39,633 nucleotides of DNA. Origin: a virus. Shown here in pieces: positions 1-39,633 of this stretch. The stretch lies in the UHGV virus genome UHGV-1978634; one strand, 5' to 3'. The position numbers and the translations under genes are program-made. Every line of letters begins with the position of its first letter. Within the stretch, counting starts at the first letter, position 1. The notes beneath the pieces are model-generated. The model saw only the letters and a list, made by a program, of their open reading frames with translations. It had not been told where the DNA came from and did no database searches.

Positions 1-451
1 TTCAAGGGCAGCGAATCGCCATTCGATGAAGATGCGCCGTATCAGGCCGGAGCATGGGCTGATGAAGTCGTGCAGGGCGACAACGTTCGCACTATTGGCG
101 ATGTATTCCGCAATAAGCGAGCGCAATTCTATTACGCGCTGGCTGACAGGCTGTATCTGACATATCGGGCGGTTGTTCACGGTGAGTATGCAGAGCCCCG
201 ACGACATGCTGAGTTTCGACAAAGAAGCGATAGGCGAGAAGATGCTGGAGAAGCTGTTTGCAGAACTGACGCAGATTCAGCGCAAATTCAATAACAACGG
301 GAAGCTGGAGCTTATGACTAAGGTCGAAATGAAGCAGAAGCTCGGTATTCCATCTCCTAACCTGGCTGATGCGCTGATGATGTGTATGCATTGCCCGGCA
401 TTGGTCCGCGAAGAAACTGAAATATACGTTCCCTCATCCTCCGGTTGGTAA
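1..451 (+). CDS. Terminase large subunit, C-terminal portion (runs in from before the window); reading frame switches from frame 1 to frame 2 at the C4 run 196-199
   Basis: Frame-1 translation from nt 1 (..GDNVRTIGDVFRNKRAQFYYALADRLYLTYRAVVHGEYAEP) and frame-2 ORF 173..451 (..DDMLSFDKEAIGEKMLEKLFAELTQIQ..) are both protein-like and join only across the cccc run; stop at 449-451 overlaps portal start. Confidence 0.8.
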
Positions 452-453
452 AC

Positions 454-2580
454 ATGGCAGAGACATTAGAGAAAAAACATGAGCGGATCATGCTCAGGTT
501 TGACCGCGCCTATTCTCCACAGCAGGAAGTGCGCGAAAAGTGCATTGAAGCTACGAGGTTTGCTCGTGTCCCCGGAGGTCAATGGGAAGGAGCAACGGCG
601 GCTGGAACTAAGCTTGATGAGCAGTTCGAGAAGTATCCTAAGTTTGAAATCAATAAGGTTGCAACTGAACTTAACCGCATCATTGCAGAATACCGCAATA
701 ACAGAATCACCGTTAAGTTTCGTCCTGGTGACAGAGAGGCAAGCGAAGAGTTAGCCAATAAATTAAATGGTCTGTTCCGTGCTGACTACGAAGAAACTGA
801 TGGCGGTGAGGCTTGCGATAATGCATTTGACGACGCTGCTACTGGTGGTTTCGGTTGCTTCCGTTTGACGTCGATGCTGGTCAATGAATACGACCCCATG
901 GACGATCGTCAGCGTATTGCTATTGAACCAATATACGACCCGTCGCGCTCTGTGTGGTTTGACCCTGACGCTAAGAAGTACGACAAATCTGACGCGTTGT
1001 GGGCGTTCTGTATGTATTCGTTGTCACCTGAAAAATATGAGGCTGAATACGGAAAGAAACCTCCTGCTTCTCTGGATGTAACGTCTATGACCAGTTGGGA
1101 ATATGACTGGTTTGATGCAGATGTTATTTACATAGCGAAGTATTACGAAGTTCGTAAAGAGTCTGTTGACGTCATCAGTTATCGACATCCAATCACTGGA
1201 GAGATTGCAACATACGACAGTGATCAGGTTGAAGATATTGAAGATGAACTGGCAATAGCTGGATTTCAGGAAGTGGCAAGGCGCTCAGTGAAGCGCCGTC
1301 GTGTGTATGTATCCGTAGTGGATGGTGATGGTTTCCTTGAGAAACCTCGACGTATTCCTGGTGAGCATATCCCCCTCATCCCGGTTTATGGAAAACGCTG
1401 GTTCATTGATGACATTGAGCGTGTCGAAGGACATATTGCAAAAGCAATGGATCCACAGCGTTTGTATAACCTTCAGGTATCAATGCTGGCTGATACTGCA
1501 GCGCAAGACCCCGGTCAGATCCCTATAGTTGGCATGGAGCAAATTCGTGGACTTGAGAAGCACTGGGAGGCTCGCAACAAGAAACGCCCAGCGTTCTTGC
1601 CGTTGCGCGAAGTGAGAGATAAATCTGGCAATATTATCGCTGGAGCTACCCCGGCAGGATATACACAGCCTGCGGTTATGAATCAGGCATTGGCTGCATT
1701 ACTACAGCAAACCAGTGCAGATATTCAGGAGGTTACAGGCGGCAGTCAGGCCATGCAGCAGATGCCAAGTAATATTGCTCAGGAAACGGTTAACAACTTG
1801 ATGAACAGAGCAGATATGGCTTCGTTTATCTATCTGGACAATATGGCGAAAAGTCTTAAACGCGCTGGTGAAGTATGGCTGTCAATGGCTCGTGAAGTGT
1901 ACGGTTCAGAGCGTGAAGTGCGCATCGTTAACGAAGATGGAAGTGATGATATCGCTGTCCTGAGCGCACAGGTTGTTGACAGGCAAACAGGGGCAGTTGT
2001 TGCGTTAAATGACCTTTCTGTCGGTCGATACGATGTGACGGTTGATGTTGGACCAAGCTACACAGCACGACGTGATGCAACGGTTTCTGTACTGACAAAT
2101 GTCCTTAGCTCTATGCTTCCAACAGACCCAATGCGCCCGGCAATTCAGGGTATTATTCTGGACAATATCGATGGCGAAGGCCTTGATGACTTCAAAGAGT
2201 ACAACCGAAACCAACTGCTGATATCTGGCATTGCAAAACCACGCAATGAGAAAGAGCAGCAGATTGTTCAACAGGCGCAAATGGCAGCACAAAGCCAGCC
2301 AAATCCTGAAATGGTTCTCGCTCAGGCGCAAATGGTAGCAGCGCAGGCAGAAGCGCAAAAAGCAACTAACGAAACTGCTCAAACTCAAATCAAAGCATTT
2401 ACTGCCCAGCAGGATGCGATGGAGAGTCAGGCAAACACTGTCTATAAACTGGCTCAAGCCAGAAACATCGATGACAAAGCAGTGATGGAGGCAATACGCC
2501 TTCTGAAAGATGTCGCCGAGTCACAACAACAGCAATTCCAGTCACCACCACAGTCACCGGCAGACTTAATGCCGAGTTAA
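454..2580 (+). CDS. Portal protein (P22 gp1 / Sf6 gp3-like)
   Basis: ORF 445..2580 (711 aa), first ATG at 454; size, position after terminase and Q/A-rich C-terminal tail typical of P22-like portals. Confidence 0.9.
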   Translation: MAETLEKKHERIMLRFDRAYSPQQEVREKCIEATRFARVPGGQWEGATAAGTKLDEQFEKYPKFEINKVATELNRIIAEYRNNRITVKFRPGDREASEELANKLNGLFRADYEETDGGEACDNAFDDAATGGFGCFRLTSMLVNEYDPMDDRQRIAIEPIYDPSRSVWFDPDAKKYDKSDALWAFCMYSLSPEKYEAEYGKKPPASLDVTSMTSWEYDWFDADVIYIAKYYEVRKESVDVISYRHPITGEIATYDSDQVEDIEDELAIAGFQEVARRSVKRRRVYVSVVDGDGFLEKPRRIPGEHIPLIPVYGKRWFIDDIERVEGHIAKAMDPQRLYNLQVSMLADTAAQDPGQIPIVGMEQIRGLEKHWEARNKKRPAFLPLREVRDKSGNIIAGATPAGYTQPAVMNQALAALLQQTSADIQEVTGGSQAMQQMPSNIAQETVNNLMNRADMASFIYLDNMAKSLKRAGEVWLSMAREVYGSEREVRIVNEDGSDDIAVLSAQVVDRQTGAVVALNDLSVGRYDVTVDVGPSYTARRDATVSVLTNVLSSMLPTDPMRPAIQGIILDNIDGEGLDDFKEYNRNQLLISGIAKPRNEKEQQIVQQAQMAAQSQPNPEMVLAQAQMVAAQAEAQKATNETAQTQIKAFTAQQDAMESQANTVYKLAQARNIDDKAVMEAIRLLKDVAESQQQQFQSPPQSPADLMPS

Positions 2581-2593
2581 CCAGGAGTAATCA

Positions 2594-38206: not shown

Positions 38207-38386
38207 GTGAGCCGCGTAATCAATTTGGGTAAGGAGAAGAAATTCCCAATTACTCAAGAGCTATACGAGCGGCTGGAAAGCGTCATCCATGATTACGATG
38301 GTGAAATCAGTTTATGCGAGGCGATTGGTACACTCGAATTGCTGAAGCAGTCACTGATTGAAGGCGCGAAAGAGTCCTCAGCCTGA
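38207..38386 (+). CDS. Hypothetical small protein (59 aa, GTG start)
   Basis: Open frame directly after the upstream stop; weak. Confidence 0.25.
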   Translation: MSRVINLGKEKKFPITQELYERLESVIHDYDGEISLCEAIGTLELLKQSLIEGAKESSA

Positions 38387-38409
38387 AATGACAATTAAGT
38401 GAGATGAAT

Positions 38410-38832
38410 ATGGCGACTGAACCAAAAGCTGGTCGCCCCTCTGATTATATGCCGGAGGTGGCTGACGATATCTGCTCGTTGCTTTCTTCTGGCGAAAGTT
38501 TGCTGAAAGTATGTAAGCGTCCTGGTATGCCGGATAAGTCCACTGTTTTCCGCTGGTTGGCAAAGCATGAGGATTTTCGCGACAAGTACGCGAAGGCAAC
38601 TGAGGCACGAGCTGATTCTATTTTCGAAGAGATATTCGAAATTGCTGACAATGCGATTCCAGATGCTGCTGAGGTGGCAAAGGCAAGACTTCGCGTTGAT
38701 ACCCGCAAATGGGCGCTGGCCCGAATGAATCCCCGTAAGTATGGCGACAAGGTAACAAACGAGCTTGTCGGCAAAGACGGCGGCGCAATCCAGATTGAAA
38801 CATCACCGATGAGTACTCTATTCGGAAAATGA
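38410..38832 (+). CDS. Terminase small subunit (Sf6 gp1-like)
   Basis: ORF 38404..38832; MATEPKAGRPSDYMPEVADDICSLLSSGESLLKVCKRPGMPDKSTVFRWLAKHEDFRDKYAKATEARADS.. matches the Sf6 small terminase as I recall it. Confidence 0.9.
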   Translation: MATEPKAGRPSDYMPEVADDICSLLSSGESLLKVCKRPGMPDKSTVFRWLAKHEDFRDKYAKATEARADSIFEEIFEIADNAIPDAAEVAKARLRVDTRKWALARMNPRKYGDKVTNELVGKDGGAIQIETSPMSTLFGK

Positions 38833-39633
38833 CCTCGATTAATCCTATCTTTGAACCGTTCATTGAGGCGCATCGCTACAAAGTCGCCAAAGGCGGTCGA
38901 GGTAGCGGTAAGTCATGGGCAATTGCGAGGCTGCTTGTTGAAGCGGCGCGTCGGCAGCCTGTGCGTATTCTCTGCGCTCGTGAACTGCAAAACAGTATCA
39001 GCGATTCGGTAATCCGGTTGCTTGAAGACACCATCGAGCGGGAAGGGTATTCGGCTGAGTTTGAAATTCAGCGTTCAATGATTCGTCATCTCGGAACGAA
39101 CGCTGAATTCATGTTCTACGGCATCAAAAACAACCCGACGAAGATTAAATCGCTCGAAGGCATTGATATCTGCTGGGTGGAAGAAGCGGAAGCGGTAACG
39201 AAGGAATCATGGGATATCCTGATTCCAACCATCCGCAAGCCATTTTCCGAAATATGGGTGAGCTTCAACCCGAAAAACATCCTCGACGATACCTATCAGC
39301 GATTCGTCGTAAATCCTCCCGATGACATTTGCCTGCTGACGGTGAACTACACCGACAACCCGCACTTTCCTGAAGTCCTCCGTCTGGAGATGGAAGAGTG
39401 TAAACGCAGAAATCCGACACTGTATCGTCACATCTGGCTTGGTGAGCCAGTAAGCGCAAGTGATATGGCAATCATCAAACGTGAATGGCTTGAAGCTGCA
39501 ACTGATGCGCACAAGAAACTCGGATGGAAAGCGAAAGGCGCTGTTGTTTCTGCGCATGACCCGTCAGATACAGGGCCAGATGCTAAAGGTTACGCATCGC
39601 GCCACGGTTCGGTAGTTAAGCGCATTGCCGAAG
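38829..39633 (+). CDS. Terminase large subunit, N-terminal portion (runs off the window end)
   Basis: ATG overlaps the small-terminase stop (ATGA); Walker A KGGRGSGKS; open to the last base. Confidence 0.9.
   Translation, partial: MTSINPIFEPFIEAHRYKVAKGGRGSGKSWAIARLLVEAARRQPVRILCARELQNSISDSVIRLLEDTIEREGYSAEFEIQRSMIRHLGTNAEFMFYGIKNNPTKIKSLEGIDICWVEEAEAVTKESWDILIPTIRKPFSEIWVSFNPKNILDDTYQRFVVNPPDDICLLTVNYTDNPHFPEVLRLEMEECKRRNPTLYRHIWLGEPVSASDMAIIKREWLEAATDAHKKLGWKAKGAVVSAHDPSDTGPDAKGYASRHGSVVKRIAE

What the first reader, a model, noticed from the sequence alone, without database searches (positions are those of the whole stretch)
1..39633. Mosaic genome: Sf6-like virion module, lambda-like control and lysis genes, KplE1-like int-gtr and xis arrangement
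Small terminase and coat resemble Sf6; cII, S, R and Rz resemble lambda; Erf and the Q-type resemble P22; the placement of xis on the far side of the att core from int-gtr matches what I recall of E. coli KplE1. Module boundaries coincide with terminators and AT-rich patches.
Basis: established knowledge. Interest (0 to 1): 0.35.

Follow-up and report, generated by a model that had tools for sequence, protein, structure and literature searches.

The report
Ordinary mosaic P22-like temperate phage
The window is a nearly complete genome of a temperate P22/Sf6-like Escherichia phage built from gene modules shared with Sf6, HK620, P22, lambda and the K-12 KplE1 prophage, which is the well-documented normal state of this phage group and not a new phenomenon.

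Summary
The mosaic is real but ordinary. No named phage covers more than about 51% of the window at 90% identity or better (HF4s 50.9%, N7 43.4%, HK620 43.4%, Sf6 41.8%).
- Small terminase is 100% and coat about 100% identical to Sf6.
- cII, S and R are 99% identical to lambda.
- Erf is 76% identical to P22.
- IntS (99%), TorI (100%), GtrA (97%) and GtrB (90%) match K-12 KplE1, and the 16-bp att core (18879-18894) lies between int-gtr and xis.

Two attributions fail. Q is the Sf6/phage-21 type (85%) with no similarity to P22 gp23. Rz is 91% HK620 but only 62% lambda.

The "KplE1-like" arrangement is the published standard module of Sf6, HK620 and CUS-3. HF4s already combines it with gtrABC.

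Homology breakpoints sit at gene boundaries (52% within 30 bp, against 14% by chance). They coincide only moderately with terminator-like hairpins and hardly at all with low GC. The AT-rich patches are cargo-gene interiors.

An unnamed prophage at argW in assembly GCA_052515165.1 matches the whole window with 0 substitutions. It differs by six one-base indels, two of which break terL and coat in the window, and by a 158-bp gap in terL. These are most likely sequence errors in the window.

The parts
1..451 (+). 3' part of the large terminase gene (Sf6/HK620 type). An extra G at window 195 shifts the frame.
   Evidence: In the identical prophage terL is an intact 470 aa.
454..3478 (+). Portal (454-2580) and scaffolding protein (2594-3478), Sf6 type.
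   Evidence: 99-100% aa to Sf6 and HK620, 32% to P22.
3490..4760 (+). Coat gene, Sf6 type, split by a G5->G4 deletion at 4152. The t-coat hairpin follows at 4765-4782.
   Evidence: The coat is an intact 423 aa in L093, L094 and L095.
4803..8870 (+). Homologues of gp6, gp4, gp10, the needle (gp26), gp14 and gp7. The needle is the Sf6 type.
   Evidence: 97-100% aa to Sf6. The needle is 99% Sf6 against 59% HK620.
8880..12127 (+). Ejection proteins. The gp20 homologue is Sf6-like at the N-terminus and N7-like in the middle. The gp16 homologue is P22-like.
   Evidence: gp16 75% P22 against 34% Sf6. N7 98.4% over window 9446-10381.
12258..14681 (+). Tailspike, 807 aa. It has a conserved head-binding domain (aa 1-113) and a rare receptor-binding body.
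   Evidence: Pfam PF09008 only. PDB sequence hits fall only in aa 1-130. The body is absent from phage records, and the best match in complete E. coli genomes is 91.5-91.9% in 9 of 5,426.
14715..17411 (-). gtrC (14715-16136), gtrB (16129-17052) and gtrA (17049-17411): the O-antigen glucosylation cassette.
   Evidence: Pfam PF14264 for GtrC, PF00535 and PF04138 for GtrB and GtrA. GtrA 97% and GtrB 90% to K-12 YfdG/YfdH; GtrC only 22% to YfdI.
17561..18718 (-). Integrase of the IntS type.
   Evidence: 383/385 aa to K-12 IntS, 21% to P22 Int.
18879..18894 (.). attP core, ATGGTGTCCCCTGCAG. It corresponds to the 3' end of tRNA-Arg argW.
   Evidence: Overlap of the K-12 attL-side and attR-side matches. 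It maps onto Sf6's annotated attP core. It is found once at each end of the prophage in GCA_052515165.1.
18968..19168 (-). Excisionase / recombination directionality factor identical to TorI.
   Evidence: 66/66 aa to K-12 TorI.
19200..23488 (-). 'ea' accessory region. It contains a lambda orf55-like gene, an AT-rich PerC-family moron (19964-20278), an EaA-like dATP/dGTP pyrophosphohydrolase-DUF551 protein, DUF7739, a phiTE_072-family protein, an HNH endonuclease and DUF2737.
   Evidence: Pfam. 99.4% identical over 19200-22753 in prophages that carry a lambda-type Exc/Int.
23485..25121 (-). Recombination genes: Sf6 gene-24-like (ORF 23485-23925, shorter as called in the prophage), abc2 (23786-24079), SSB-like (24103-24489), and Erf (ORF 24486-25121; 201 aa from the start used in the prophage, 24486-25091).
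   Evidence: Erf 76% P22. PHROG 44 SSB. abc2 95-96% to P22, Sf6 and HK620.
25102..26439 (-). Small early-left genes (gene 29/30-like, cIII-like, gene 34-like, ral) and tL-type hairpins. This stretch contains four of the six one-base indels (25433, 25671, 25778, 25823).
26518..27035 (-). N antiterminator (HK620-like N-terminus, different C-terminus) and a 203-bp leader segment (26833-27035) that HK620, N7 and HF4s lack.
   Evidence: The segment is 99.6% in HK140 and 76.8% in CUS-3. Its predicted fold has z = -3.7.
27386..28789 (.). Immunity region of the HK620 type: hkaS-like gene, cI (27772-28488, minus strand) and cro (28595-28789, plus strand).
   Evidence: cI 236/238 and cro 64/64 to HK620.
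28898..29191 (+). cII, lambda type, with an oop-like terminator on the opposite strand (29140-29167).
   Evidence: 96/97 aa to lambda cII, 50% to P22 c1. Terminator scan.
29363..32211 (+). Replication module: an O-type initiator (29363-30223) and a Toprim primase-helicase fusion (30331-32211).
   Evidence: Pfam PF04492, PF13155, PF13481. Not found in Sf6, HK620, P22 or lambda. The best-matching phage and E. coli records for this half annotate toprim-domain/primase and replication proteins under their matches (mEp043, Sf101, 720R6).
32754..34479 (+). nin region: ninB (HK620-like), ninE, ninX, ninF, and ninG (98% lambda).
34466..35258 (+). Late antiterminator Q of the Sf6/phage-21 type (ORF 34466-35011, probable start 34523), followed by tRNA-Asn (35103-35177) and tRNA-Thr (35183-35258).
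35501..36888 (+). Lysis cassette: S (35501-35824), R (35808-36284), a chimeric Rz (36281-36748), and a gene 65-like ORF.
   Evidence: S and R 99% lambda. Rz 62% lambda and 91% HK620.
36848..38386 (+). Rha/ORF11CD3-domain protein, followed by hkbM- and hkbN-like genes.
   Evidence: Pfam PF09669 and PF10549. 96-98% aa to HK620 and P22 orf80/orf59c.
38410..39633 (+). Small terminase (38410-38832, Sf6 type) and the 5' part of the large terminase (38829-39633).
   Evidence: terS 140/140 to Sf6. terL 100% over 268 aa.

Best explanation
The window is an almost complete genome, in circular (attP) form and opened inside terL, of a temperate P22-like podovirus of the Sf6 head subtype that infects Escherichia.

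How it works (inferred from homology except where marked as shown):
- DNA is packaged by an Sf6-type TerS/TerL into an Sf6-type capsid.
- The tailspike has a conserved head-binding domain and a rare receptor-binding body.
- IntS integrates the genome at the 3' end of tRNA-Arg argW through a 16-bp core. Because attP lies between int and xis, the prophage has int-gtrABC at attL and the TorI-type excisionase at attR. This layout is shown directly in the integrated copy. According to the KplE1 literature, int and xis are therefore transcribed independently.
- GtrABC would glucosylate the lysogen's O-antigen. The GtrC is as rare as the tailspike body.
- Control genes are HK620-type cI/cro and N, lambda-type cII, an O-type initiator with a primase-helicase, a phage-21/Sf6-type Q, and lambda-type S and R.

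The patchwork arises from recombination among lambdoid phages and prophages, with surviving joints at gene boundaries. This is the established behaviour of the group. The six one-base indels and the 158-bp gap in terL are most likely errors in this copy of the sequence.
For: - Gene order and per-gene identities.
- Coverage by reference genomes.
- No named phage or complete E. coli genome matches end to end.
- att core from the overlapping K-12 attL and attR matches. Sf6 and HK620 annotate the same int/attP/xis layout.
- The integrated, otherwise identical copy at argW is bounded by the core on both sides, and its flanks are 96.7-97.4% identical to K-12.
- Breakpoints lie at gene boundaries: 52% within 30 bp against 14% for random positions, with none of 2,000 random sets reaching the observed value.
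- Module exchange is seen directly. The tailspike-gtr cassette occurs at 98.5-99.97% identity in other chromosomal contexts. The ea segment 19200-22753 occurs at 99.4% next to lambda-type Exc/Int.
- Independent assemblies agree against the window at all six indel sites and have intact terL (470 aa) and coat (423 aa).
- Literature: PMC2951348 and PMC3509656 describe the KplE1/HK620/Sf6/CUS-3 recombination module.
Against: - No function was tested experimentally. O-antigen specificity, integration, immunity and viability are all inferred from homology.
- As written, the window has broken terL and coat genes, so this exact sequence could not make virions.
- Four of the six indels cluster within 391 bp (25433-25823), which is unusual for random errors.
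- Which copy carries the errors is inferred by majority vote and ORF integrity, not from reads.
Confidence: 0.9

Rival explanations
1. The window is a decaying, defective prophage-like element. On this reading the frameshifts in terL and coat and the 158-bp loss in terL are real inactivating mutations.
For: One-base indels break terL at 195 and coat at 4152. 158 bp of terL are missing between the window's ends. Four more indels alter small early-left ORFs.
Against: The sequence is in attP form, not integrated. There are 0 substitutions in 39.6 kb against a prophage with intact genes, whereas real decay would add substitutions as well. Three independent assemblies agree against the window. The 158-bp gap falls exactly at the window's ends, so it looks like an end effect of linearisation or sampling.
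Confidence: 0.06
2. The mosaic is an assembly chimera, in which contigs of several related phages or prophages were joined by an assembler.
For: The window lacks 158 bp at its ends and carries indels, which suggests an imperfect assembly.
Against: The whole window is collinear with one contiguous prophage on a 1.3-Mb NCBI contig. Long parts of it are collinear with independent Logan and ENA assemblies, and the same joints appear in each.
Confidence: 0.02
3. The genome is a recent direct recombinant whose parents were the named phages themselves (Sf6 x lambda x KplE1 x P22), and not a draw from a large shared pool.
For: Identities to single references are very high in places: terS 100% Sf6, TorI 100% K-12, cII/S/R 99% lambda.
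Against: At the nucleotide level the shared blocks are 95-98% identical, not about 100%. Many blocks have closer relatives elsewhere, such as HF4s, N7, HK140, mEp043 and unnamed prophages. About half the genome matches none of the five named references at high identity.
Confidence: 0.03

Closest known systems
Unnamed argW prophage in NCBI assembly GCA_052515165.1 (contig DBKBKR010000001.1, about 994,980-1,034,787)
   Same: Collinear with the entire window, with 0 mismatches. It has the same 16-bp core at both ends and the same modules and joints.
   Different: It is integrated (attL/attR form). It contains the 158 bp of terL that the window lacks and differs at six one-base indel sites. Its terL and coat are intact. 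It is unnamed and uncharacterised.
Escherichia phage HF4s (MT833387)
   Same: It is the best named match, covering 50.9% of the window at 90% identity or better. It shares the Sf6-type head genes, the tailspike-gtrC-gtrB-gtrA-int-xis layout, and the HK620-type immunity region at 98.5%.
   Different: Its tailspike body is different, its GtrC is only 20% identical, and its ea, replication and parts of its nin regions differ.
Shigella phage Sf6 (NC_005344)
   Same: The virion module from terS to the first third of the gp20 homologue is 97-98% identical in DNA. int-attP-xis is 97.4% identical. Q (85%), the tRNA pair, S and R are also shared.
   Different: Sf6 carries oac instead of gtrABC. It has a different tailspike body, gp16 (34%), Erf type (26%), immunity, cII and replication genes, and an IS911 in ninG.
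Coliphage HK620 (NC_002730)
   Same: Head genes, int-attP-xis, cI (99%) and cro (100%), the N-terminal part of N, ninB and Rz (91%).
   Different: HK620 has a polymerase-like hkcF instead of gtrABC, a lambda-type Q (as annotated), a DnaB-type helicase, and a different needle, tailspike and recombination module.
E. coli K-12 cryptic prophage KplE1 / CPS-53
   Same: IntS 99%, TorI 100%, GtrA 97%, GtrB 90%. It has the same core at argW and the same order: attL-intS-gtrA-gtrB-gtrC ... torI-attR.
   Different: KplE1 is a 10-kb remnant with no virion, immunity or lysis genes. Its GtrC (YfdI) is only 22% identical.
Phage lambda and Salmonella phage P22
   Same: Lambda: cII, S, R, ninG and ral at 96-99%. 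P22: Erf 76%, gp16 75%, gp10 93%, gp14 91%, abc2 95%, and the overall P22-like virion gene order.
   Different: Lambda is a siphovirus with different virion, int/xis, Q, immunity and replication genes. In P22, attP lies between gtrA and int, with xis next to int, and its head genes are only about 32% identical or not detectably similar.

Membership tests
P22-like phages (Lederbergvirus), Sf6 head subtype | P22-type virion gene order: terS-terL-portal-scaffold-coat-gp4-gp10-gp26-gp14-gp7-gp20-gp16-tailspike | tested here: met
   All of these genes are present in this order. Pfam P22_portal, P22_CoatProtein, P22_Tail-4, Phage_stabilise, P22_gp7, Inj_translocase, Phage_P22_gp16 and Head_binding hit the identical prophage genes.
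P22-like phages (Lederbergvirus), Sf6 head subtype | Sf6-type (not P22-type) terminase, portal, scaffold and coat sequences | tested here: met
   99-100% aa identity to Sf6. Against P22, portal and scaffold are 32% and coat and terS give no hit.
P22-like phages (Lederbergvirus), Sf6 head subtype | Same species as a named phage (about 95% identity over the whole genome) | tested here: not met
   The best named phage, HF4s, covers only 50.9% at 90% identity or better. No phage record covers 80% or more of either half.
Lambdoid phages | Lambda-like early and late gene order (N - cI - cro - cII - O - replication partner - nin - Q - S R Rz) with segments interchangeable with lambda | tested here: met
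   The order is confirmed. cII, ninG, ral, S and R share 95.5-98.3% DNA identity with lambda.
KplE1/HK620/Sf6 argW recombination module | IntS-type integrase and TorI-type RDF | tested here: met
   IntS 383/385 and TorI 66/66 to K-12.
KplE1/HK620/Sf6 argW recombination module | att core identical to the 3' end of argW, lying between int and xis so that the two genes end up at opposite prophage ends | tested here: met
   The 16-bp overlap of the attL-side and attR-side matches. It maps onto Sf6's annotated core. The integrated copy has the core at both ends, with int at the argW-yfdC side and xis at the dsdC side.
KplE1/HK620/Sf6 argW recombination module | A dedicated intS promoter overlapping attL, negatively autoregulated and uncoupled from xis transcription (PMC2951348) | not testable with these tools
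   Only sequence conservation of the region could be shown: 96-98% to Sf6, HK620 and K-12. The consensus scan found a promoter-like site on the minus strand at 18768-18741, which is not evidence of function.
GtrABC O-antigen glucosylation (seroconversion) cassettes | GtrA flippase, GtrB GT2 bactoprenol glucosyltransferase and a serotype-specific GtrC, in one operon next to the attachment/integrase region | tested here: met
   PF04138, PF00535 and PF14264. GtrA 97% and GtrB 90% to K-12. GtrC is divergent, 20-23% to YfdI, P22 GtrC and HF4s GtrC.
GtrABC O-antigen glucosylation (seroconversion) cassettes | Actual modification of the host O-antigen | not testable with these tools
   This needs LPS analysis of a lysogen.
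   BLASTP E=5.6. A global alignment gives 18%, which is noise level. The protein is 85-86% identical to Sf6 gp59, annotated as phage-21-like.

The most novel reading that the evidence does not exclude
The rare tailspike body (aa ~130-807, with no Pfam or PDB sequence match) and the equally rare GtrC travel together as one cassette. They may define an uncharacterised O-antigen receptor specificity coupled to a matching seroconversion activity. The AT-rich PerC-family moron may additionally modulate host transcription in lysogens.
Probability: 0.4. Interest if true: 0.3.

Novelty: new member of a known kind. Interest (0 to 1): 0.1.

Why it matters
It matters little beyond cataloguing. The window adds one more combination of already-known modules to the P22-like/lambdoid pool. 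It gives a clean worked example of module exchange: the same tailspike-gtr cassette and the same ea segment sit next to different integrases. It also shows that K-12's KplE1 is the remnant of exactly this kind of phage. The practical point is a caution. This copy of the sequence carries six one-base indels and a 158-bp gap that break terL and coat, so automated annotation of it would wrongly report pseudogenes.

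Tried and rejected
- Searched for an end-to-end match among named phages and complete E. coli genomes. None was found.
- Scanned the GTDB species representatives with the tailspike. Only head-binding-domain relatives came back. In IMG/VR the best full-length tailspike is 91% identical.
- Tested whether the PerC segment (19775-20695) is unique. It has no match in phage records or complete E. coli genomes. It is, however, 99.7% identical in two IMG/VR contigs and 99.1-99.5% in several NCBI prophages, so it is not unique. The exact-protein look-up for my 104-aa PerC ORF found nothing, probably because the assemblies call a 99-aa product.
- Considered the 203-bp segment upstream of N, which has a 9-bp direct repeat at its edges, as a MITE or insertion. 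I rejected this because I saw no terminal inverted repeats by eye and the segment is present in HK140 (99.6%) and CUS-3 (76.8%) as part of the N leader.
- The Rfam scan found only the two tRNAs.
- The PDB sequence search with the tailspike hit only the head-binding domain.
- I did not run structure prediction, the deep protein searches or a metagenome scan, because the question was settled without them.

Full report
**What the window is.** ORF listing and comparison with annotated references show a P22-like podovirus gene order. It runs terL (3' part), portal, scaffold, coat, gp4, gp10, needle, gp14, gp7, gp20, gp16 and tailspike on the + strand. Then come gtrC-gtrB-gtrA-int, an att core, xis and a leftward early operon on the - strand. 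After that come cI / cro-cII, replication, nin, Q, two tRNAs, S-R-Rz, small genes, terS and the 5' part of terL. The window begins at Sf6 coordinate 1383 and ends at Sf6 coordinate 1224, both inside terL. It is therefore a circularly permuted, nearly whole genome in attP form, lacking 158 bp between its ends.

**Is it mosaic, and does any known phage match end to end?**
- blastn coverage of the window is Sf6 49.6%, HK620 47.5%, P22 29.1% (only 79% identity), lambda 8.6% and K-12 KplE1 8.1%.
- Against 50,697 phage records, no record covers 80% or more of either half. The best values are N7 at 62% and HF4s at 61% of the left half, and vB_EcoP-720R6 at 54% of the right half.
- Against 5,426 complete E. 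coli genomes the best values are 73% and 59%, in different strains.
- At 90% identity or better, the best single named genome is HF4s with 50.9%.

**The individual attributions** (exact global alignments).
- Correct: terS 140/140 and coat about 100% to Sf6; cII 96/97, S 106/107 and R 156/158 to lambda; Erf 76% to P22 (26% to the Sf6 Erf).
- Wrong: Q has no similarity to P22 gp23 (BLASTP E=5.6). It is 85-86% identical to Sf6 gp59, which Sf6's annotation describes as phage-21-like, and it is followed by the same tRNA-Asn/tRNA-Thr pair as in Sf6.
- Half right: Rz is 62% lambda but 91% HK620. Lambda-like DNA stops at window 36528, inside the gene.
- Further mosaic detail: the immunity region is HK620 type (cI 99%, cro 100%). 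The gp16 homologue is P22-like (75%) and not Sf6-like (34%). The gp20 homologue switches from Sf6-like to N7-like at about 9450-9530. The replication module is an O-type initiator plus a Toprim primase-helicase that none of the five references has. N is HK620-like only in its N-terminal part.

**The int-gtr / att / xis layout.** The K-12 attL-side match (argW 3' end, intS, yfdG, yfdH; window 18894-16128; 90.4%) and the attR-side match (torI to the argW pseudo-fragment pawZ; window 19218-18879; 97.9%) overlap by 16 bp. That overlap is the core, window 18879-18894. IntS is 99%, TorI 100%, GtrA 97% and GtrB 90% identical to K-12, but GtrC is only 22% identical to YfdI. It is not distinctive, though:
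- Sf6 and HK620 are annotated with the same int / attP core / TorI-like xis order.
- The literature describes this module as highly conserved in KplE1, HK620, Sf6 and CUS-3, with uncoupled int and RDF transcription and 100% identical RDFs (PMC2951348, PMC3509656).
- HF4s and the NCTC11121 prophage already combine it with gtrCBA next to the tailspike.
- P22 itself is different: it has gtrA-attP-int-xis.

**Boundaries, terminators and AT-rich patches.** I took the ends of blastn matches (200 bp or longer, 88% identity or better) to eight named references. That gave 118 ends in 65 clusters, which I compared with 2,000 sets of random positions.

| Measure | Observed | Random | Outcome |
|---|---|---|---|
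| Within 30 bp of a gene boundary | 52% | 14% | no random set reached the observed value |
| Intergenic | 28% | 9% | no random set reached the observed value |
| Within 100 bp of a stronger terminator-like hairpin | 26% | 11% | p about 0.001 |
| Local GC | 0.448 | 0.461 | p about 0.04 |

Terminator-like hairpins are themselves enriched in the window: 35 and 31 found in the two halves, against 19.5±4.7 and 20.4±4.7 expected. Good examples of joints at hairpins are 12143-12243 (after gp16), 19212-19531 (after xis), 25494-25712, 26210, 29187-29231 (oop-like) and 36929.

The AT-rich patches are the interiors of cargo segments, not the junctions. GC is 0.392 for the tailspike body plus gtrC, 0.360 for the PerC moron, 0.370 for HNH and 0.390 for gene 34-ral, against 0.461 overall. 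One caveat: I drew the gene list partly from homology, and the hairpin list is a pattern scan.

**The same element exists as a prophage.**
- Exact-protein look-ups found the identical tailspike, GtrC, primase-helicase and EaA-like proteins in many public assemblies.
- Merging three loci from NCBI GCA_052515165.1 gives a prophage collinear with the whole window: window 18878-39633, then 158 bp, then window 1-18894. There are 0 mismatches and six one-base gaps. The prophage is bounded by the 16-bp core on both sides.
- It lies between dsdC and argW-yfdC-mlaA, and its flanks are 96.7-97.4% identical to K-12.
- This does not refute mosaicism relative to the named phages. It does show that the window is not unique and that its host is Escherichia.

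**The indels.** Compared with that prophage, and with independent Logan assemblies where they overlap, the window has +G at 195 (terL), -G at 4152 (coat, G5->G4), -A at 25433, -T at 25671, +T at 25778 and +T at 25823. terL (470 aa) and coat (423 aa) are intact in the assemblies. Zero substitutions alongside six indels points to sequence error in the window and not to decay. The clustering of four indels within 391 bp remains unexplained.

**Direct evidence of module exchange.**
- The tailspike-gtrCBA cassette (about 12177-17482) occurs at 98.5-99.97% identity in other chromosomal contexts without IntS.
- The ea segment 19200-22753, which includes the PerC moron, occurs at 99.4% next to lambda-type Exc/Int at other attachment sites. 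Part of it also sits in a prophage whose structural genes have a different Pfam repertoire (Head-tail_con, Bbp19, GP7, Bbp16; L107).
- The junction at about 19200 lies just outside xis, at the 19217-19236 hairpin.

**Verdict.** This is an ordinary, well-understood kind of genome. It is a new combination of known modules, so a new member of a known kind, in the P22-like (Sf6 head subtype) lambdoid phages. Interest is low.

Noticed in passing
window 195; 4152; 25433; 25671; 25778; 25823: There are six one-base indels and no substitutions relative to an otherwise identical prophage and to independent assemblies. Two of them frameshift terL and coat. Four cluster within 391 bp in the early-left region and change the small ORF calls there.
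   Followed up: yes
window ends (39633 -> 1): 158 bp of terL are missing between the end and the start of the window. They are present in the prophage copy, so the window is not a closed circle.
   Followed up: yes
window 19775-20695: An AT-rich (GC 0.36) moron carries a PerC-family transcriptional-activator gene (19964-20278, minus strand) and a small hydrophobic ORF (20361-20549, plus strand). It is absent from 50,697 phage records and 5,426 complete E. coli genomes, but it is 99.1-99.7% identical in IMG/VR contigs and NCBI prophages that have other integrases.
   Followed up: partly
window 12640-16136: The tailspike receptor-binding body and gtrC are both rare. The body has no phage-record match and occurs at about 91.5-91.9% in only 9 of 5,426 complete E. 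coli genomes, and gtrC accompanies it in just 2 of those. Both are low in GC (0.39) and they move together as a cassette. The body has no Pfam or PDB sequence match beyond the head-binding domain.
   Followed up: partly
window 26833-27035: HK620, N7 and HF4s lack a 203-bp segment between nutL and the N start codon. The 9-mer TCAATTCCA occurs at both edges. The segment is present in HK140 (99.6%) and CUS-3 (76.8%) and has a strongly structured predicted RNA fold (z = -3.7). It may be an N-leader regulatory structure.
   Followed up: partly
window 12146-12226: An 81-bp remnant is 96% identical to the end of P22 ant and its terminator. The immI region (sieA-mnt-arc-ant) is otherwise absent between gp16 and the tailspike, as in Sf6 and HK620.
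   Followed up: no
window 26518-26817 and 36281-36748: There are joints inside genes. N is HK620-like only in its N-terminal ~69 aa. Rz is lambda-like in its N-terminal half and HK620-like overall.
   Followed up: partly
L097-L100 (loci): The identical GtrC and tailspike cassette lies next to unrelated chromosomal genes without IntS. In L097 and L099 it is next to a PBP5-like peptidase gene. In L098 and L100 it is near SHMT and globin-domain (glyA- and hmp-like) genes, and in L098 it is followed by a transposase and a different integrase. This suggests remnants or other integration modules.
   Followed up: no
window 22747-23325: An HNH endonuclease gene (PF13392) with low GC (0.37) sits in the ea region. 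It is shared at 98% with HK629 and is probably a free-standing homing-type insertion.
   Followed up: no
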